A stretch of 64,000 nt of DNA from Nitrosopumilaceae archaeon. GTDB lineage: Archaea; Thermoproteota; Nitrososphaeria; Nitrososphaerales; Nitrosopumilaceae. Positions 22,922-44,550 of the stretch are shown here, piece after piece. Location of the stretch: the NCBI GenBank assembly GCA_965209085.1, contig OZ242376.1:1600001-1664000 (forward strand). The letters run 5' to 3'. Position 1 is the first letter of the stretch. Each line of letters begins with the position of its first letter. Below the pieces are notes generated by a model. The model saw nothing but the letters and a program-made list of their open reading frames with translations. It was not told the origin of the DNA and did not search any database. A program made the position numbers and the translations under genes.

Positions 22922-23090
22922 AAAATTTCTTGTGAACGTCCATTCCAACAAACATATCCTTCCCAGAATATCGGGTAATCTGTTTGTTTACATTTGGATC
23001 TTTTTTAGATGATTTACGTCTCGGCAATACGGATCGTTTGACATTCTTACAACCATCTGTGGTCTTAGAAGCTCTCTTCACATATGGTTA
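22922..23090 (-). mobile_element. Left end and N-terminus of an IS110/IS1111 element, cut off by IS66-A
   Basis: Hand translation 23027->22922: LPRRKSSKKDPNVNKQITRYSGKDMFVGMDVHKKF (first DEDD motif); end TA-ACCAT-ATGTGAA. Confidence 0.8.
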
Positions 23091-23160
23091 TGCATAATGG
23101 GTCAAATTCACAATTTTTACGAATAAAAATGACCGATTTGAACGATTATGCATACGGTCT
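23089..23160 (+). mobile_element. Family-1 MITE whose left TIR is interrupted by the IS110/IS1111 end
   Basis: TATGCATAATGGGTCAAATTCACAATTTTTACGAATAAAAATGAC...ATTATGCATACGGTCT. Confidence 0.85.
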
Positions 23161-38982: not shown

Positions 38983-39633
38983 TTAGTCCCACTTTGACCA
39001 AGCGGCCATCCACCTGTATGTCCAGGTGTTCAGCTTCACACCCAATGCCGCCATCGTTACCGATAGCACTGCTCCGGCACCAGCACCTAACGCGACAGGA
39101 CTATTGTAGAACTTTCCTACCTGCGGTTCGATTGGTGTCATGTATGGAGGCAACGTTGGTCTTGGGTACTTGAACGCAGTCTCAAGTGGGTCTGCCACGG
39201 TAATTAGATTGACCATGTTGAACAGTGGTAAAGACATTCCAACCAGTACGCCACCGAATAGTATCAGTGAGTGCTTGTTGCGTTTTGTTGCCCAGTATGC
39301 CAAATCCAACAGCATTGCTGATGGGAGCCAAACTGGAGTAACAATGAAGTCATATGGATAACCAAGTGCAAACCATGCGCCCTTGGCAATCCACGTATAC
39401 ACTGTCATAATCAATGCGTAATACGTAGCTGTTCCTGGAACGCCAGTAAAGGTGAGATAATATGTCGCACCTACAACTAACATCAAAGTTTGCGATATTG
39501 AAAATATCGTAAACGATGTCCAAGCCCAGTCAGTATAGAAGATATAATCTCCCGCATTGATTGTCAATAGAGTCGAATTTACCGCAACTACAATTATGAA
39601 GAGGTAGTGGGTACATCGTCTAAGCCAGACCAT
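38983..39633 (-). CDS. amoA: Ammonia monooxygenase subunit A
   Basis: 216 aa, MVWLRRCTHYLF...WMAAWSKWD. Confidence 0.99.
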   Translation of the reverse strand: MVWLRRCTHYLFIIVVAVNSTLLTINAGDYIFYTDWAWTSFTIFSISQTLMLVVGATYYLTFTGVPGTATYYALIMTVYTWIAKGAWFALGYPYDFIVTPVWLPSAMLLDLAYWATKRNKHSLILFGGVLVGMSLPLFNMVNLITVADPLETAFKYPRPTLPPYMTPIEPQVGKFYNSPVALGAGAGAVLSVTMAALGVKLNTWTYRWMAAWSKWD

Positions 39634-40069
39634 TGTTAGATTAACAATAAGGTTAGTATATAAAATTATAGCAAGATATGGACGCATGTAGCCAGTCACA
39701 GGCGTAAAAAAGACAATATTGCCAAAAATCGCCGATTTTACTGATGCTTATTTGGTAAATATCGATATTTCAGGCATTATCCACACCTTTGGCATCCATG
39801 GTCATAATCCATGAGATCTGCCTGATCGACCATATTGCCAAAAGTGATCTGTTTGAATCAAGAATTTAAAGAACGATTGCCTAGTTGGGTATACAGTCAG
39901 AATCTAATTCATGGGGCAATTATGTAGATATCAAGAGACAAACGCGGCCGCAACTCTTGTTTACTTGCATCCAAAAGTATGATTTGTTCAATATATGGCT
40001 GAACGTGAAAAATATCGTATCATGTACAATAGATCAGAATCTAATTTGAATTGCAGTATGCATTACATT

Positions 40070-40146
40070 AGACCATATGTATGATTGGCCAAATTCACAA
40101 TTTTTACAAATAAAATGACTGATTTGAACGATTATGCATACGGTGT
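40070..40146 (+). mobile_element. Family-1 MITE copy
   Basis: AGACCATATGTATGATTGGCCAAATTCACAATTTTTAC...ATTATGCATACGGTGT. Confidence 0.85.
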
Positions 40147-40381
40147 TATACCCATTTGACCATTTCGTATATCTGAAAATGGAACATATGTTTTGCATGA
40201 AATTATGATCAGATGATCAGAATATGAAATCAGACGTATGATGTAGCAAAAAATATCCAAATGTATAGTCGGTTATGTTGGACGCGATATGAGCGTACGT
40301 AAATACGGTTTTTTAGAATTTAATTCCCGCCACCATAATACGGCATGGTAATTCACTGCATGTGTAATTCTAATGTACAAT

Positions 40382-40457
40382 AGATATTTGCGTAATCATT
40401 CAAATTAGTTATTTTATTTGTAAAAATTGTGTATCTGATCCATTATGCATACGATCC
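40382..40457 (-). mobile_element. Degenerate family-1 MITE copy, inverted
   Basis: Reverse complement of the MITE body; AAT on both flanks. Confidence 0.75.
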
Positions 40458-40624
40458 AATAGAAATTAATGAACCTGTACGTATAACCACGACATTGTAA
40501 TTGATTTGAAGATCATACAGTTTCATAAATATCAATAAACAAACATTACAGTTGGCAGGTTGATAGAAAAATAAAATCTACAAACAACACTAGGAAGTAT
40601 TCAAAAATGAAAAAAAATTGCTAT

Positions 40625-40987
40625 CTAGTGTCCTACGAACAATGAAATTAATACTGTACCTACTGCTACTGCGCCAAGTGTAACAGCAATGAGTTTGTTG
40701 CTGTTTTTAGATGAACCCTCTTCGCATACTTTGACGGAAAATAGGTAGGCAATTGACTCGACAATAGTCAAGACAATAAATGCATAGTGTCCGCTAGGTG
40801 TGGGGTAAGCCCAAGGATAATAGAAATATCCTGCTGCAGTACCTCCGAACGTGGCTAGCCATGCTGCAATGAAAGAAAGCGTGATAATGCCAGTCATGTT
40901 TTCTACACGACGACCAATCATTTTTTCTACATCAGCTGCACCGACACCGCCGCCGCCACCTGAACCAAATCCTTTTGGTAGAGTCAT
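40625..40987 (-). CDS. amoX: Ammonia monooxygenase-associated subunit X
   Basis: MTLPKGFGSGGG..IGRRVENMTG..YYPWAYPTPSGHYAF; next to amoA. Confidence 0.92.
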   Translation of the reverse strand: MTLPKGFGSGGGGGVGAADVEKMIGRRVENMTGIITLSFIAAWLATFGGTAAGYFYYPWAYPTPSGHYAFIVLTIVESIAYLFSVKVCEEGSSKNSNKLIAVTLGAVAVGTVLISLFVGH

Positions 40988-41078
40988 TTGAACTAATGAG
41001 ATATTGAATCCTTTTAAGTCTTTTTAATTAAATAGTATGCGCTGTGTCTGAAAATCACCAATATTCCATAAAGATGGA

Positions 41079-41159
41079 GTATGAGGTCACATCATGCCTA
41101 GAATTTATGCAATAAATGAAGATGTATGCACAAAATAGCACGAGGTGCTGACCTCATAC
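41079..41159 (+). mobile_element. 81-bp family-2 MITE with IS66-B ends
   Basis: TIR GTATGAGGTCA/TGACCTCATAC; flanks AAGATGGA/AAGATGGG. Confidence 0.85.
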
Positions 41160-41367
41160 AAGATGGGCTATTCACAGGCATTGTAGAGTTTCTGAGTGTG
41201 AAAATACATGTATGCACTATAGATCCGTGAACTAGAGTTGGCCGTAATTCACGTAAAATTGTATACAAACTATGGCCTGTCATATATCTAATAATTTGCC
41301 TTGAATGTTTGAACTTTTGTAACCGTCTAAAGTTTCAAAGTTGTATGCATATTTGATCAAACACAAT

Positions 41368-42555
41368 AGACCTCATACATAATTAACCAAAAAATCAATT
41401 TTGGCAAATCGAAAGATCTATGATCTAGTATCAGGTGCGCATAGCATATGCCAATCAGACAAACGCATGATCTCTAAACTGAAAAAGACGATCTTAAAGA
41501 TGGGAAAGAAGAGTTCCATGCAGGAAAAAAGAATTTCCAATCAAAAAGAAAGAATTTCCAAGCTGGAAGCAAAGAATCAACGCTACAAAAAAACGACTCT
41601 GAGCATCAATGATGACAAAAGACAGCATGTCGACAAATATTTGAACAAGGGAATTGGGAATGATGTTCATCCATATGAAATGACAGGAATGAACCGTGAA
41701 GAATTTGAATGGATTCTAGAACGGTTCTGAAAAACCGTGGAAGATTCGTCAGAGACTTCCCGCTTTTCAGAATATGTGGACAATCCTGAAAACATCTATA
41801 TCCTTACCGTAAAGCAAGTTTTGTTTATCGTAGTGCCGCAAACGCAATAATCTCAAACCGGGAGCACTTGCGTTCATTGCAAACGTTGATCAGAGCACCA
41901 TTAGCAGATATCTGACCTTTTCTGATGAGCAGTTGATGGATGTTCTTCCAACGGCTAAGAATATTGGTGCTGCAATACGGACAATACGTACAAGCGAGTT
42001 GTTTAAAAAATTCGTACCTGGCAGGGGCGGCGGCGAGATGTATCTTGATGCCACGTTTGTACAGGTTCAAAGGCCGCAGGAGAATCCAGAGGCAGTATAC
42101 TCTGGAAAACGCAAGAGGCACGTCTACAGCGTACCGATAGCCTCCAACAAAGATGGAGTGGTAAATGACATTGGCGGTCCAGAAGAGGGCTCAGTACACG
42201 ACATGGAGGTACTGCGGCGTAATCTGCCAAATTTTGGCAAATGGACCGATGGTATGAAAAATCCGGACACGAAAAAAGAGCGCCAAATTATGCTATATAC
42301 TGACAAGGGATATCTGTCCGTGGAAAAAGACTATCCTGGAATTATCTCAAAACAACCGTACAAAAAACCAAAGGGCAGGGGATTGACAGAGGCAGAACGC
42401 GAATACAGCAAGAGGATCAGTCGTAAGCGCATAAAAATAGAGCATGCCATAAACTGACTCAAATGGTTCCGTAGAATGAGTGCTGTATATGATGATACAA
42501 TGGATGCGTTTTATACAGAAATCCAAGTGGTTACAGGACTGACCAATCTGCACAT
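41368..42555 (+). mobile_element. Second IS5-like copy, 3' end deleted
   Basis: Near-identical to the 27147 copy; TIR AGACCTCATACATAAT after AAT; similarity stops at CTGCACAT. Confidence 0.9.
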
Positions 42556-42714
42556 GTCCAATTTGCATCAGAGAGTAACATTTCTGAATTTTACCGGCGT
42601 CTTGCAAAAAAGAGAGGATCATCCAAGGCCAAAGTTGCAGCAGCGGCCAAGATGCTTGATGTCATATTTGGTATGCTAAAGGATAGGAGTGAATTTGAAA
42701 TACATCATAGTTAA
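42553..42714 (+). pseudogene. C-terminus of IS110/IS1111 recombinase
   Basis: Hand translation HVQFASESNISEFYRRLAKKRGSSKAKVAAAAKMLDVIFGMLKDRSEFEIHHS*, typical IS110 C-terminal pattern. Confidence 0.8.
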
Positions 42715-42921
42715 AGCAACAAACCGCGGGTTAGACTTTGGAGATGTTACCCCGGTTGCATAACTGCGGTAAGCTTTAACATGTGGATAAAGATGGTTGT
42801 GGGATTAAATCCCGAATGGATAGATGTCTTTTCATCTTTTGGTTGGAAACAGACACATGGCGAAAGCCATACCGCATGACACAAAAAAGCAAGAAACCTT
42901 TAAAAAATATTCACATGAATA
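42715..42921 (+). ncRNA. IS1111-type non-coding right end, candidate bridge/seek RNA
   Basis: Stem-loops holding target- and donor-matching segments, GAAA tetraloop hairpin 42857-42870, sub-terminal TTCACAT-GAA-TA. Confidence 0.68.
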
Positions 42922-43175
42922 TGGTCTAATCATCATATTCTAGATGTGGAACTTTGGACAGATGTGAATTTTTTTTTGAATTGTATCTTGTAGGTGTCAC
43001 TTGCAGTTTTCAATATTTTCCAATATGTGCTGCAAATGATTTCCGCATAAAGTACAAACAGCATTGAAGAATATTTTCTAGTTTATCATATGAGAAAACG
43101 TTTTCTGTAAAAATACATGTGGAAAAAATCTAGCAGACAGCGTCTGCTGGTATGTTGAAAAATGAGATAAGTTTA

Positions 43176-43745
43176 CTAGATTACTTGCCAAGGTCTTGTA
43201 GCGAATGTTATTACATATCCGACGCCAATTATGATTGACTGGTATGCAATGTTTGTGTAAGGTATCTCTTTGAGAATGTAAGAACCTTCGACTACGACTG
43301 TTTGTCCCGGACCAAGACCTGGACCAACGGTTGCCACGTTGAGTTGTGTGTGTACATGGTATACACCAGGCTCTAAAGCCTTTGCGCAGATTTTGTATGG
43401 GACAAGATCGTTTCCTTCAATGTCAAAGACGTTTCCAGGAGGATCTCTAGATTGTATCTCCCATCTGTTTCCTGCATTAGTTGATTCTGAGAATATTGAA
43501 ACCCATGCTCTCAGATCTCTTTCTACAAGACTTTGTAGTTCGCCTTCAAGACAAAGTTGTTCACCAGTATTAAATGACTGTCCGTTAAAGGTTTCATCTT
43601 GGATCTTTACGAAACGACTTTGTAGTTGTGCTTGAACTCCGTGTGCTTCTGCAGTAGGCAGTATGGTATCAACCCAGTTGAAACCGAGGCTACCTAGTGC
43701 CAAAACTGCACCAAGTCCAATTACAAGAATTGTGTTGTTTTTCAT
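43176..43745 (-). CDS. amoB: Ammonia monooxygenase subunit B
   Basis: AEAHGVQAQLQSRF, NAGNRWE, YHVHTQLN, FATRPWQVI. Confidence 0.98.
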   Translation of the reverse strand: MKNNTILVIGLGAVLALGSLGFNWVDTILPTAEAHGVQAQLQSRFVKIQDETFNGQSFNTGEQLCLEGELQSLVERDLRAWVSIFSESTNAGNRWEIQSRDPPGNVFDIEGNDLVPYKICAKALEPGVYHVHTQLNVATVGPGLGPGQTVVVEGSYILKEIPYTNIAYQSIIIGVGYVITFATRPWQVI

Positions 43746-43986
43746 ATCTGTTAACTTGCATCAAACTACACATGGTTATATGTTTTATCTTATCATACGT
43801 GAGTTGGATATTGTTTAATGGCTATGATTAACATAGTTTTAATATCTGTAAATAATGAATAATAGCAATTTTTTATCAAAATATTCAAAATTATCGCATA
43901 CATTTTAGCAATATTTATGTTAATTTTCATGCATTTACGTATATTTGATACTATTGCTTTATATCAGATGAAGTGGTAATATCAGT

Positions 43987-44550
43987 ATGACACAAATGCC
44001 GGCACTGATCCCAAAAGAAGTCGAAATCCAAAGATTGAAAAAGATTTGGCTCATCATAATAGCCATGGGTTCTGTTGCTGCATCCGTCGAAGTAGACAAC
44101 TTCGTCGACGGATCTCTGCACCAAACATCTATCAGAGATAGCGCATTTACTCCAGCACACTGGTGGCTATATTCCCACTTTGTGGCGCTACCACTCGGTT
44201 GGGGTTCTGTAGCAATCTATGACAGAAAGGTGCCCATACTTCGTGGACCAAACAACTCGATGAACACGGGACTCAAAATGACCATTCTTGGTTATCTTGC
44301 AACCATGTTTACGATTGGTATAAATGAAATGTGGCACTTTTGGTTTGTAGAAGAGATATTTGCAGTACCGAACCACTGGATGTTCAACATGGGTGTTGTT
44401 GTGGCCTTTATGGGCGCTCTAGCTTACGTAGTTAGAGTGTACGCAAGGCTCGTCGAACTTGGCGCAGAAACGCCTGGTGAGAACCCCTATATCGCCGAGA
44501 TGTACAAGATGGCTTTAGAGGGCAAACTATACAGCAGATCCATACCCTAG
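43987..44550 (+). CDS. amoC: Ammonia monooxygenase subunit C
   Basis: DNFVDGSLHQTSIRDSAFTPAH, NEMWHFWFVEEIFAVPNHW. Confidence 0.99.
   Translation: MTQMPALIPKEVEIQRLKKIWLIIIAMGSVAASVEVDNFVDGSLHQTSIRDSAFTPAHWWLYSHFVALPLGWGSVAIYDRKVPILRGPNNSMNTGLKMTILGYLATMFTIGINEMWHFWFVEEIFAVPNHWMFNMGVVVAFMGALAYVVRVYARLVELGAETPGENPYIAEMYKMALEGKLYSRSIP

What the first reader, a model, noticed from the sequence alone, without database searches (positions are those of the whole stretch)
42715..42921. Candidate archaeal bridge/seek RNA programmed against another transposon's terminal repeat
Seen: downstream of an IS110-type recombinase C-terminus lies a roughly 200-nt structured non-coding end with two parallel loops. 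Loop 1, closed by ACCGCGG/CTGCGGT (42723-42770), holds TTAGACTTTG (42731-40) and TGCATA (42757-62), matching the two strands of the reconstructed target ATTATGCA-TA-TGGTCTAA, which is the IS5-like/MITE TIR. Loop 2 holds AGATGGTTG (42791-99) and CGAATG (42813-18) around a GGGAT/ATCCC hairpin, matching the reconstructed circle junction ATGAA-TA-ACCATAT (7/9 and 4/6). Known: IS110/IS1111 recombinases use a non-coding RNA with target- and donor-binding loops, located downstream of the ORF in IS1111. Inference: this is that RNA, and its U/G-rich guide could read TIR variants AGACTTCA, AGACCTCA and AGACCTTA by wobble pairing. Matches are short and no intact recombinase is in the window.
Basis: partly seen in the sequence, partly recalled or inferred. 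Interest (0 to 1): 0.92.

Follow-up and report, generated by a model that had tools for sequence, protein, structure and literature searches.

The report
Decayed archaeal bridge-RNA gene copy
This stretch is the broken-off tail of a jumping gene in an ammonia-oxidising archaeon; it carries the gene for a two-loop guide RNA that steers the element into the tip of another jumping gene, a mechanism known from bacteria and seen here in a new archaeal family.

Summary
Window 42553-42921 is the last 370 bp of a 1,335-bp IS110-family element ("ISA") of the IS1111 layout. The genome holds 7 full-length copies, 2 of them with an intact recombinase gene. The window copy is dead: it lacks its first 967 nt and has two point defects. 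Its 3' non-coding end folds into two internal loops. That fold is kept in 16 of 16 aligned relatives: 97% of cells are paired, against 33-44% when partners are slid, and 15 of 22 pairs show compensatory change. In loop 1, the 5' strand is complementary to the right flank and the 3' strand repeats the left flank. Both track each element's own insertion site (0/20000 and 0/50000 permutations; held-out set 2/50000). In loop 2, the 3' strand repeats the element's right terminus (0/50000). ISA's target is the terminal-repeat tip of an IS5-like element and its miniature derivative. No RNA data exist. This is a new archaeal member of a known kind. Three points go beyond the finding. The recombinase frame opens at left-end nt 2, with a GTG at nt 8 that lies one promoter-spacing downstream of a TATA-like box in the right end once the element is circular. 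The 5' strand of loop 2 duplicates a coding site inside the left end. A sister element carrying a nonsense codon has spread.

The parts
41366..42555 (+). Degenerate IS5-like element (DDE_Tnp_4), 3'-truncated; its right terminal repeat was the target of ISA
   Evidence: Pfam PF13359/PF01609 on ORF 41933-42457. About 25 related copies in the genome all stop matching at window 42555 and then run on for at least 170 nt that the window copy lacks. The left boundary is approximate.
42553..42921 (+). 3' remnant of ISA (positions 968-1337 of the 1,337-nt core-to-core unit), joined to the IS5-like element at a 5-nt microhomology
   Evidence: BLAST to full-length copies, 96% identity. Joint read.
42553..42714 (+). 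Last 53 codons of the recombinase plus stop (TAA 42712-42714)
   Evidence: Frame 42481+3n. The full-length product P0001 hits PF01548, PF02371 and NF033542.
42710..42829 (+). Bridge/seek RNA gene (decayed): helix P1 42710-42717 / 42773-42780; helix P2 42724-42728 / 42765-42769; helix P4 42785-42789 / 42825-42829
   Evidence: RNAalifold and pair counts on 16 relatives. Model R1 hits window 42708-42833 at 96.9 bits. Folds.
42731..42738 (+). Target loop, 5' guide strand: complementary to the top strand of the right flank
   Evidence: Pairs with 42922-42929 and with the flanks of sister copies. Own versus cross 5.06 versus 3.61, 0/20000. Held-out 2/50000.
42739..42754 (+). Hairpin P3 between the two target-guide strands; broken in this copy by A at 42742 (G in the 14 other copies that keep this part)
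   Evidence: hairpin present in 16 of 16 relatives, at least 4 pairs in 14.
42757..42763 (+). Target loop, 3' guide strand: same sense as left flank plus core TA plus one base
   Evidence: Fixed-register test: 47 of 65 positions equal to the element's own left flank, against 23% cross, 0/50000.
42791..42799 (+). Donor loop, 5' strand: complementary to the left terminus (5-8 nt) and identical to an internal left-end site missing from this copy
42800..42814 (+). Hairpin P5 of the donor loop
   Evidence: helix 4, 97.5% of cells paired, 3 pairs with compensatory change.
42815..42822 (+). Donor loop, 3' guide strand: same sense as right terminus plus core
   Evidence: At least 7-nt exact match in 13 of 16 relatives (7 in 12, 8 in 1); own versus cross 6.75 versus 5.08, 0/50000; tracks the G/A difference at right-end position -3 in 16 of 16.
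42829..42841 (+). T-rich run after the last helix; possible archaeal terminator or 3' end of the RNA
   Evidence: Read from the sequence. Inference only.
42899..42906 (+). TATA-like box facing outward from the right end
   Evidence: In 13 of 13 elements the most A+T-rich 8-mer starts 30 to 26 nt upstream of the GTG at left-end nt 8, when the ends are joined on paper.
42912..42921 (+). Right terminus with subterminal inverted repeat and core TA (42920-42921); 42918 is mutated in this copy
42922..42929 (+). Outer tip of the IS5-like terminal repeat, left behind to the right of the insertion

Best explanation
The region is the 3' end of a dead copy of ISA, a 1,335-bp insertion sequence of the IS110 family with the IS1111 layout: recombinase gene first, long non-coding right end, short subterminal inverted repeats. 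That right end encodes a bridge (seek) RNA of about 120 nt with two internal loops. In the target loop, the 5' strand pairs with the top strand of the DNA to the right of a TA core. The 3' strand repeats the left flank plus TA, so it pairs with the bottom strand. In the donor loop, the 3' strand does the same for the element's right terminus, and the 5' strand pairs with the left terminus. Inferred, not shown: the recombinase loaded with this RNA brings the joined ends of a circular copy together with the target and exchanges strands at TA. ISA's target is the tip of the terminal inverted repeat of an IS5-like element and of its roughly 80-bp miniature derivative. The window copy inserted there. 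It then lost its first 967 nt and the end of the IS5-like element in a deletion at a 5-nt microhomology, and picked up point defects at 42742 and 42918.
For: Anatomy: the genome has 7 full-length copies and 17 right ends. 11 of 11 left and 16 of 17 right junctions carry TA, and uninterrupted sites form the end of the IS5-like element. Protein: PF01548 and PF02371; NF033542 'IS110 family RNA-guided transposase' at 223.9 bits against a cut-off of 140; nearest solved chains are the ISCro4 and IS621 transposases. Fold: 22 pairs in 4 helices, 97.2% of cells paired against 32.9-43.9% when slid, 15 pairs with compensatory change, 0/500 shuffles on 4 of 5 measures. The hairpin between the guide strands is present in 16 of 16. 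Target guides: 0/20000; four wrong-strand or wrong-side controls gave 8541, 1686, 12993 and 19249 of 20000; 0/50000. Held-out test on 8 guide clusters not used before: own 6.19 against cross 3.79, 2/50000, own flank best for 6 of 8. Within one cluster of a sister genome, a G/A guide position matches the C/T first flank base in 9 of 9 copies. In the same genome, sister element ISB has the same termini and donor loop but a different target loop, which matches its own, different right flank over 9 nt including the core. All 4 ISA copies with the GAG guide sit at CTC sites. Donor 3' strand against right terminus: 0/50000. Layout and strand order agree with what is reported for IS1111-type seekRNAs: non-coding region downstream, top-strand match 5' of bottom-strand match, matches overlapping in the target (PMC11187229, sections 6 and 9 read).
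Against: No RNA evidence: no RNA run was listed and Rfam has no matching family. Expression, RNA ends and binding are therefore all inferred. 4 of 10 ISA copies with the GAC guide sit at CTC sites (two are one duplicated locus), so the in-genome association is weak. This is expected if the RNA acts in trans, but that was not shown. The register of the 5' guide relative to the hairpin differs by 2 nt between ISA and ISB. Some relatives match poorly: own score is 2.25 for the G033 and G088 elements. The free-offset test of the 3' strand against the left flank was only 529/20000. The donor 5' strand is only weakly tied to the left terminus (1654/50000). The structure tested was derived from the same alignment, which favours it over the slid controls. 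The relatives are kin, so the permutation counts are not true probabilities.
Confidence: 0.88

Rival explanations
1. No guide RNA is involved. The conserved right end is a protein-binding terminus, and its similarity to the flanks arose because pieces of target were captured into the element or by chance.
For: No RNA data. The target is partly palindromic, so short matches to either strand come easily: for ISA alone, the wrong-strand control of the 3' strand scored 7.0.
Against: Four helices with compensatory changes argue for a folded RNA. The matches lie on the two sides of an internal loop, on the expected strands, in elements with unrelated targets. Wrong-strand and wrong-side controls are not significant. 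Held-out elements behave the same way.
Confidence: 0.04
2. The structured end is a 3' UTR, terminator or regulatory RNA of the recombinase transcript and does not choose targets.
For: It starts at the stop codon and is followed by a T-rich run. No promoter of its own was recognised.
Against: This does not explain why loop strands covary with flanks and termini, nor why ISA and ISB share everything except the target loop.
Confidence: 0.05
3. The window copy, though truncated, still supplies guide RNA in trans to intact copies, like a solo guide-RNA gene.
For: About 7 of the 17 right ends are 5'-truncated (no matching left part was found) yet all but two still hold the RNA gene. The window copy still scores 96.9 bits with R1. 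Extra copies of the small-RNA gene without a transposase are reported for ISPpu9 (PMC12288879, abstract only).
Against: Hairpin P3 is broken at 42742. No promoter is evident upstream, and the only promoter-like box in the element points outward. There are no expression data.
Confidence: 0.12

Closest known systems
seekRNA / bridge RNA of IS1111-group elements (ISEc11, ISPa11, ISKpn4; Siddiquee et al. 2024, PMC11187229; Durrant et al. 2024, PMC11208160)
   Same: DEDD recombinase with PF01548 and PF02371. The long non-coding region lies downstream. There are subterminal inverted repeats. The top-strand match lies 5' of the bottom-strand match and the two meet at the core. Durrant et al. predicted a bridge RNA in the right end of 93% of IS1111s (passage read).
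   Different: The host is an ammonia-oxidising archaeon. The recombinase is only 24-37% identical to the plasmid-borne relatives found. A promoter-like TATA box of archaeal type sits in the right end and a GTG at left-end nt 8. The donor-loop 5' strand duplicates a coding site inside the left end. No Rfam family matches.
IS621 bridge RNA (IS110 group; PDB 8wt6)
   Same: Two internal loops, each with a hairpin between two guide strands: one for the target, one for the joined ends. There is a dinucleotide core. The recombinase is related (E = 2.2e-6).
   Different: In IS621 the RNA is encoded in the left end, upstream of the gene, and the strand order is reversed (PMC11187229 abstract). The core is TA here; the CT core of IS621 is recalled, not checked.
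IS4321 / IS5075 (IS1111 family)
   Same: They insert at one position and orientation into the terminal inverted repeats of other transposons (title of Partridge and Hall 2003, seen in a reference list).
   Different: Bacterial, with Tn21-family targets. Here the prey is an IS5-like element and its miniature derivative in an archaeon. ISB and a family in the sister genome hit other transposon ends or another position of the same repeat.
ISPpu9 and its Ssr9 small RNA (Pseudomonas putida; PMC12288879, abstract only)
   Same: An IS110-family element inserted in repeated palindromic elements, with a small-RNA gene downstream of the transposase and extra RNA-gene copies elsewhere.
   Different: Bacterial and REP-targeted. 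No sequence comparison was made here.

Membership tests
IS110 family insertion sequence | DEDD (RuvC-like) N-terminal domain plus Transposase_20 C-terminal domain | tested here: met
   Full-length copy P0001: PF01548 98.5 bits, PF02371 81.5 bits; NF033542 223.9 bits against cut-off 140. The 50-aa window fragment alone has no hit.
IS110 family insertion sequence | Site-specific insertion without terminal inverted repeats; only a short core is repeated at both junctions | tested here: met
   TA at 11 of 11 left and 16 of 17 right junctions. 10 of 11 left flanks share the same 6 nt. Uninterrupted sites exist.
IS110 family insertion sequence | Catalytic D-E-D-D and the conserved Ser in the C-terminal domain | not tested
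   Only the HMMER alignment to ISCro4 was seen. Residues were not mapped. The motif around the Ser reads S-A rather than S-G in P0001 (read; interpretation recalled from PMC11187229 section 6).
IS1111 group | Long non-coding region downstream of the gene, short one upstream | tested here: met
   About 200-250 nt downstream, against 7 nt before the GTG, in 13 of 13 elements.
IS1111 group | Subterminal inverted repeats of 7-17 bp | tested here: inconclusive
   The longest exact inverted repeat is 5-8 bp, starting at left-end nt 5-7 and right-end nt 3-4. 7 of 13 reach 7 bp, at the lower edge of the stated range.
IS1111 group | Recombinase branches within the IS1111 clade | not testable with these tools
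   No ISfinder reference set was on hand. The nearest solved chains belong to elements I recall, without checking, as IS110-group elements. A 36%-identical haloarchaeal relative appears to carry a loop-like module upstream of its gene instead.
Bridge / seek RNA | Conserved fold with two internal loops, each split by a hairpin | tested here: met
   Model R1 finds 20 copies in the own genome and hits in 19 of 151 family genomes.
Bridge / seek RNA | Target-loop strands match the two strands of the insertion site and covary with it | tested here: met
   ISA against ISB within one genome.
Bridge / seek RNA | Donor-loop strands match the joined element ends | tested here: inconclusive
   3' strand against right terminus: met (0/50000). 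5' strand against left terminus: weak (5-8 nt, 1654/50000). It does follow 3 of 4 variant left termini by eye.
Bridge / seek RNA | The RNA is made and binds the recombinase; reprogramming the loops retargets insertion | not testable with these tools
   No RNA run was listed.

The most novel reading that the evidence does not exclude
This archaeal clade has rewired the IS1111 scheme in three ways. (1) The recombinase gene has no promoter of its own. Its frame opens at left-end nt 2 and starts at a GTG at nt 8, while a complete archaeal-type TATA-like box lies in the right end. Only the circular or tandem junction would therefore place that box about 26 nt upstream of the GTG and yield a leaderless mRNA, so recombinase and 3' guide RNA would be made only after excision. 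(2) The 5' strand of the donor loop is kept identical to a coding site at left-end nt 30-42. The RNA is thus fully complementary to the template strand just downstream of that start. This could be a second docking site or a feedback brake that known bridge systems are not described as having. (3) Guide modules are exchanged naturally: ISB has the same ends and donor loop, a different target loop and a nonsense codon shared by all 4 copies, so it appears to be moved in trans while using its own guide.
Probability: 0.35. Interest if true: 0.72.

Novelty: new member of a known kind. Interest (0 to 1): 0.52.

Why it matters
Bridge and seek RNAs were worked out in bacterial elements. Archaeal IS110 recombinases have been catalogued (662 in one survey, bioRxiv 10.1101/2024.06.21.599552, passages read). 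I found no description of their guide RNAs, and none for ammonia-oxidising archaea, in four full-text searches. This family offers a natural series of retargeted guides: at least 20 distinct target loops across 19 genomes, with insertion sites that can be read off the genomes. That is useful for learning pairing rules such as register, wobble and core. It also shows transposons preying on the ends of other transposons in small archaeal genomes. If the junction-dependent promoter and the internal left-end site hold up, they bear on an open question in the field: how excision, expression and insertion are ordered.

Tried and rejected
Rfam scan of 41000-44000 at E up to 10 gave only a sub-threshold SNORD24 match (20.1 bits against 41), taken as chance.

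Public runs: no RNA holder was listed. Laying contigs of four DNA runs on the intact copy showed a joint skipping 1,416 nt. The same joined form exists as paralogous uninterrupted repeats in this genome, so it is no evidence of excision.

A search of the genome for a head-to-tail junction of ISA ends (up to 4 errors) found none.

RNAfold on the isolated loop interiors paired the guide strands with each other and mis-set the hairpin borders. It was replaced by fixed windows and a constrained fold.

A regex attempt to locate the non-coding ends found only 8 of 17 and was abandoned.

The idea that the 2-3 variable letters at the 3' end of the donor 5' strand pair with the core or with target flanks was checked by eye and dropped. 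They are rarely complementary to TA, and ISA and the G001 element share a target but differ there.

Plasmid relatives were fetched to ask whether the internal left-end duplicate exists outside this clade. The nearest (36% identity, a haloarchaeon) has a different layout, so the question stays open.

Rows dropped: of 16 relative loci L024-L039, L038 (match cut by a contig end) and L039 (non-coding end diverges after the first half of loop 1) were left out of the alignments. L040-L052 (at most 36% identity, or cut) were not examined. The G088, G124 and G070 elements were left out of all left-end tests because their left ends could not be located. In the held-out test, 4 of 40 hits were dropped for an unlocated right terminus, 13 for guides within 3 differences of a training guide, and the remaining 23 were collapsed to 8 clusters.

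Supplementary files of the papers were not opened; the supplementary figures of PMC11187229 and PMC11208160 on IS1111 folds may already show features I call new.

Full report
WHAT IS THERE

The window lies in a 1.69-Mb single-contig genome of an ammonia-oxidising archaeon. ORFs flanking the region hit archaeal AmoA, monooxygenase subunit B and AmoC.

The 421 nt around the finding recur at 22 places in the genome. Extending the copies shows a 1,335-bp element, here called ISA, counting the TA core once. Seven copies are full length. Two more are split by later insertions, and the rest are fragments.

The intact copy encodes a protein that hits PF01548 and PF02371. It also hits NCBIfam NF033542, 'IS110 family RNA-guided transposase', at 223.9 bits against a cut-off of 140. 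Its nearest solved relatives are the ISCro4 and IS621 transposases. In one search, two copies have an uninterrupted gene.

The window copy corresponds to positions 968-1337 only. Its left side is fused to an IS5-like element (PF13359) at a 5-nt microhomology. All other copies of that IS5-like element run on for at least 170 nt beyond the fusion point.

So ISA first inserted in the right terminal repeat of the IS5-like element. A later deletion removed the end of one element and the first 967 nt of the other. The outer 8 nt of the repeat still follow the ISA right end, at 42922-42929.

ENDS AND TARGET

All 11 left junctions and 16 of 17 right junctions carry TA. Ten of 11 left flanks share the same last six letters. 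The right flanks are variants of one 8-mer.

The uninterrupted sequence is the very end of the IS5-like element. It is also the end of a miniature derivative of about 80 bp, inside which several ISA copies sit. The genome still holds 94 unoccupied sites within 3 substitutions of an 18-nt intact site: 52 with TA at the core position, 38 with TG and 4 with CA.

THE FOLD

I aligned the non-coding right ends of ISA, of a second element in the same genome (ISB, about 65% nucleotide identity, 60% at protein level) and of 14 relatives. The relatives come from 14 other genomes of the same taxonomic family, at 41-62% protein identity.

RNAalifold returns four helices that frame two internal loops. Sixteen of its 24 predicted pairs show compensatory change. 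Counting those four helices (22 pairs) gave these results:
- 97.2% of cells paired, against 32.9-43.9% with partners slid by 1-3 columns;
- 15 pairs with changes on both sides;
- no shuffle of 500 reached the observed value on four of five measures (71 of 500 did on the fifth).

This structure came from the same alignment, which flatters it. The relatives are also kin.

A hairpin separates the two strands of loop 1 in 16 of 16 sequences, with at least 4 pairs in 14. A covariance model of the 126-nt core finds 20 copies in the own genome, the window copy at 96.9 bits. It also finds hits in 19 of 151 sampled genomes of the family, in 9 of 27 genera.

GUIDES AND SITES

5' strand of loop 1 against the right flank:
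- It is complementary to the 12 nt right of the core of its own element far better than to those of other elements: mean score 5.06 against 3.61, 0 of 20000 permutations, n = 16.
- Four controls with the wrong strand or wrong side were unremarkable: 8541, 1686, 12993 and 19249 of 20000.

3' strand of loop 1 against the left flank:
- The strand ends in an invariant TA.
- The five letters before that TA equal the last five letters of the element's own left flank at 47 of 65 positions, against 23% across elements (0 of 50000; n = 13; three elements dropped because the left end was not located).
- A looser, free-offset version of this test gave only 529 of 20000.

Held-out check. I fetched 40 further model hits not used so far and located their right termini by alignment. 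I removed anything close to a training guide and collapsed the rest to 8 guide clusters. Own flank scored 6.19 against 3.79 for other flanks, 2 of 50000 permutations, and the own flank was best for 6 of 8. Inside one cluster of the sister genome, a G/A difference in the guide goes with a C/T difference in the first flank base in 9 of 9 copies.

Within the window's own genome:
- ISB has the same termini and donor loop as ISA.
- Its target loop is different.
- The 5' strand of that loop pairs over 9 nt, core included, with ISB's own right flank.
- That flank is the end of yet another repeated element.

Among ISA copies, all four with the GAG guide sit at CTC sites. Copies with the GAC guide sit at GTC sites six times and at CTC sites four times, two of the four being one duplicated locus. 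That is only suggestive.

DONOR LOOP

The 3' strand of loop 2 repeats the right terminus plus core: at least 7 exact letters in 13 of 16 (7 in 12, 8 in 1); 6.75 against 5.08; 0 of 50000. It follows the G/A difference at right-end position -3 in 16 of 16. This is the segment at 42815-42822.

The 5' strand is complementary to the left terminus over only 5-8 nt, and the permutation test is weak (1654 of 50000). By eye it does follow three of four variant left termini.

HOW THIS COMPARES WITH PRINT

For IS1111-type elements, Siddiquee et al. report three things (PMC11187229, abstract and sections 6, 9, 13 read):
- the non-coding region lies downstream;
- a top-strand match lies 5' of a bottom-strand match;
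- the two matches overlap in the target.

Durrant et al. predicted bridge RNAs in the right end of 93% of IS1111s and describe subterminal repeats of 7-17 bp (PMC11208160, passages found).

The present elements fit on the layout and strand-order points above. Their subterminal repeats are short, 5-8 bp exact. Targeting of another transposon's terminal repeat is known for IS4321 and IS5075 (title seen in a reference list).

I therefore file this as a new archaeal member of a known kind. Placement inside the IS1111 clade by phylogeny was not tested.

BEYOND THE FINDING

(1) Reading frame and start codon
- In 13 of 13 elements the recombinase frame is open from left-end nt 2, and the core TA plus the first base forms a TAA just before it.
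- A GTG stands at nt 8-10 in all 13.
- The stretch up to the catalytic motif has 0 stops in 596 codons, against 28 and 32 in the other two frames.
- Three of the 13 have no ATG in that stretch.
- So the gene most likely starts 7 nt from the element's edge and has no room for a promoter.

(2) Promoter-like box
- Each right end carries an A+T-rich, TATA-like box.
- Once the ends are joined, it starts 30 to 26 nt upstream of that GTG.
- This is the spacing I recall for archaeal promoters, and it would give a leaderless mRNA.
- Junction promoters are reported for bacterial relatives (recalled).
- This archaeal version is inferred from sequence only.

(3) Internal left-end site
- The 5' strand of the donor loop is identical, in the same sense, to a site at left-end nt 30-42. 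The match is 7-10 nt in 9 of 13 elements; 6.92 against 5.42; 8 of 50000.
- That site lies in the coding extension, at codons S-D-G-x.
- The RNA strand is therefore fully complementary to the template strand there.
- I have no tested explanation.

(4) ISB
- All four ISB copies share an in-frame TAA at the same codon.
- Their left flanks nevertheless differ.
- This suggests movement in trans.

VERDICT

The window copy is a relic, and nothing here shows the RNA itself.

Noticed in passing
window 38983-44550: The IS5-like/ISA composite (41366-42929) sits inside the ammonia monooxygenase gene neighbourhood, between amoA (38983-39699, minus) and amoB (43176-43745, minus) / amoC (43987-44550, plus). 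The outward TATA-like box of the ISA right end (42899-42906) points toward amoB in antisense.
   Followed up: partly
own genome, ISB copies at C1:666534(+), 730168(+), 857775(-), 1173451(-): Sister element ISB has the same termini and donor loop as ISA and a different target loop. All 4 copies share one in-frame TAA (codon 211) yet have different left flanks, so a defective element seems to have spread, perhaps moved by the ISA enzyme.
   Followed up: partly
left ends of 13 elements (e.g. L002, L019, L024-L034): The recombinase frame is open from left-end nt 2 with a GTG at nt 8-10 in 13 of 13. It encodes a basic N-terminal extension of 34-66 codons with a conserved S-D-G motif (0 stops in 596 codons, against 28 and 32 in the other frames). 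This extension lies outside the Pfam and NCBIfam domain matches.
   Followed up: yes
left-end nt 30-42 of the same elements; window 42791-42799 for the loop strand: The donor-loop 5' strand is same-sense identical to this internal coding site and covaries with it (8 of 50000 permutations). Unexplained.
   Followed up: partly
own genome, many places (e.g. C1:1623088-1623154 = window 23088-23154; window 40065-40140, 40389-40451): A palindromic miniature element of about 75-80 bp shares the terminal repeat of the IS5-like element and is scattered over the genome. 94 unoccupied ISA-target-like sites were counted.
   Followed up: partly
window 22923-23090: A 168-bp left-end fragment of ISA (96% identity) lies elsewhere in the window. 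No intact recombinase gene is in the window.
   Followed up: no
sister genome G019, loci L075-L088: Another family of the same clade has a target loop matching the same IS5-like terminal repeat a few nt away from the ISA site. Different elements thus prey on the same repeat at different positions.
   Followed up: no
L035 (G088) and L036 (G124): G088 has tandem repeats of about 90 bp upstream of the gene and a duplicated right terminus. G124 carries two different IS110-type genes about 100 bp apart, and this pair recurs at three places.
   Followed up: no
L053 (Halorubrum ezzemoulense megaplasmid, 330003-332371): The nearest plasmid-borne relative (36.6% identity) has about 220 nt of structured non-coding sequence upstream of its gene, including a GC hairpin followed by a stretch resembling the donor-loop 3' strand. 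The module may sit at the other end in this haloarchaeal element.
   Followed up: no
window 42856-42873: A conserved box with a GNRA-type tetraloop hairpin lies between the RNA core and the TATA-like box. It is kept in most of the 16 relatives. Function unknown.
   Followed up: no
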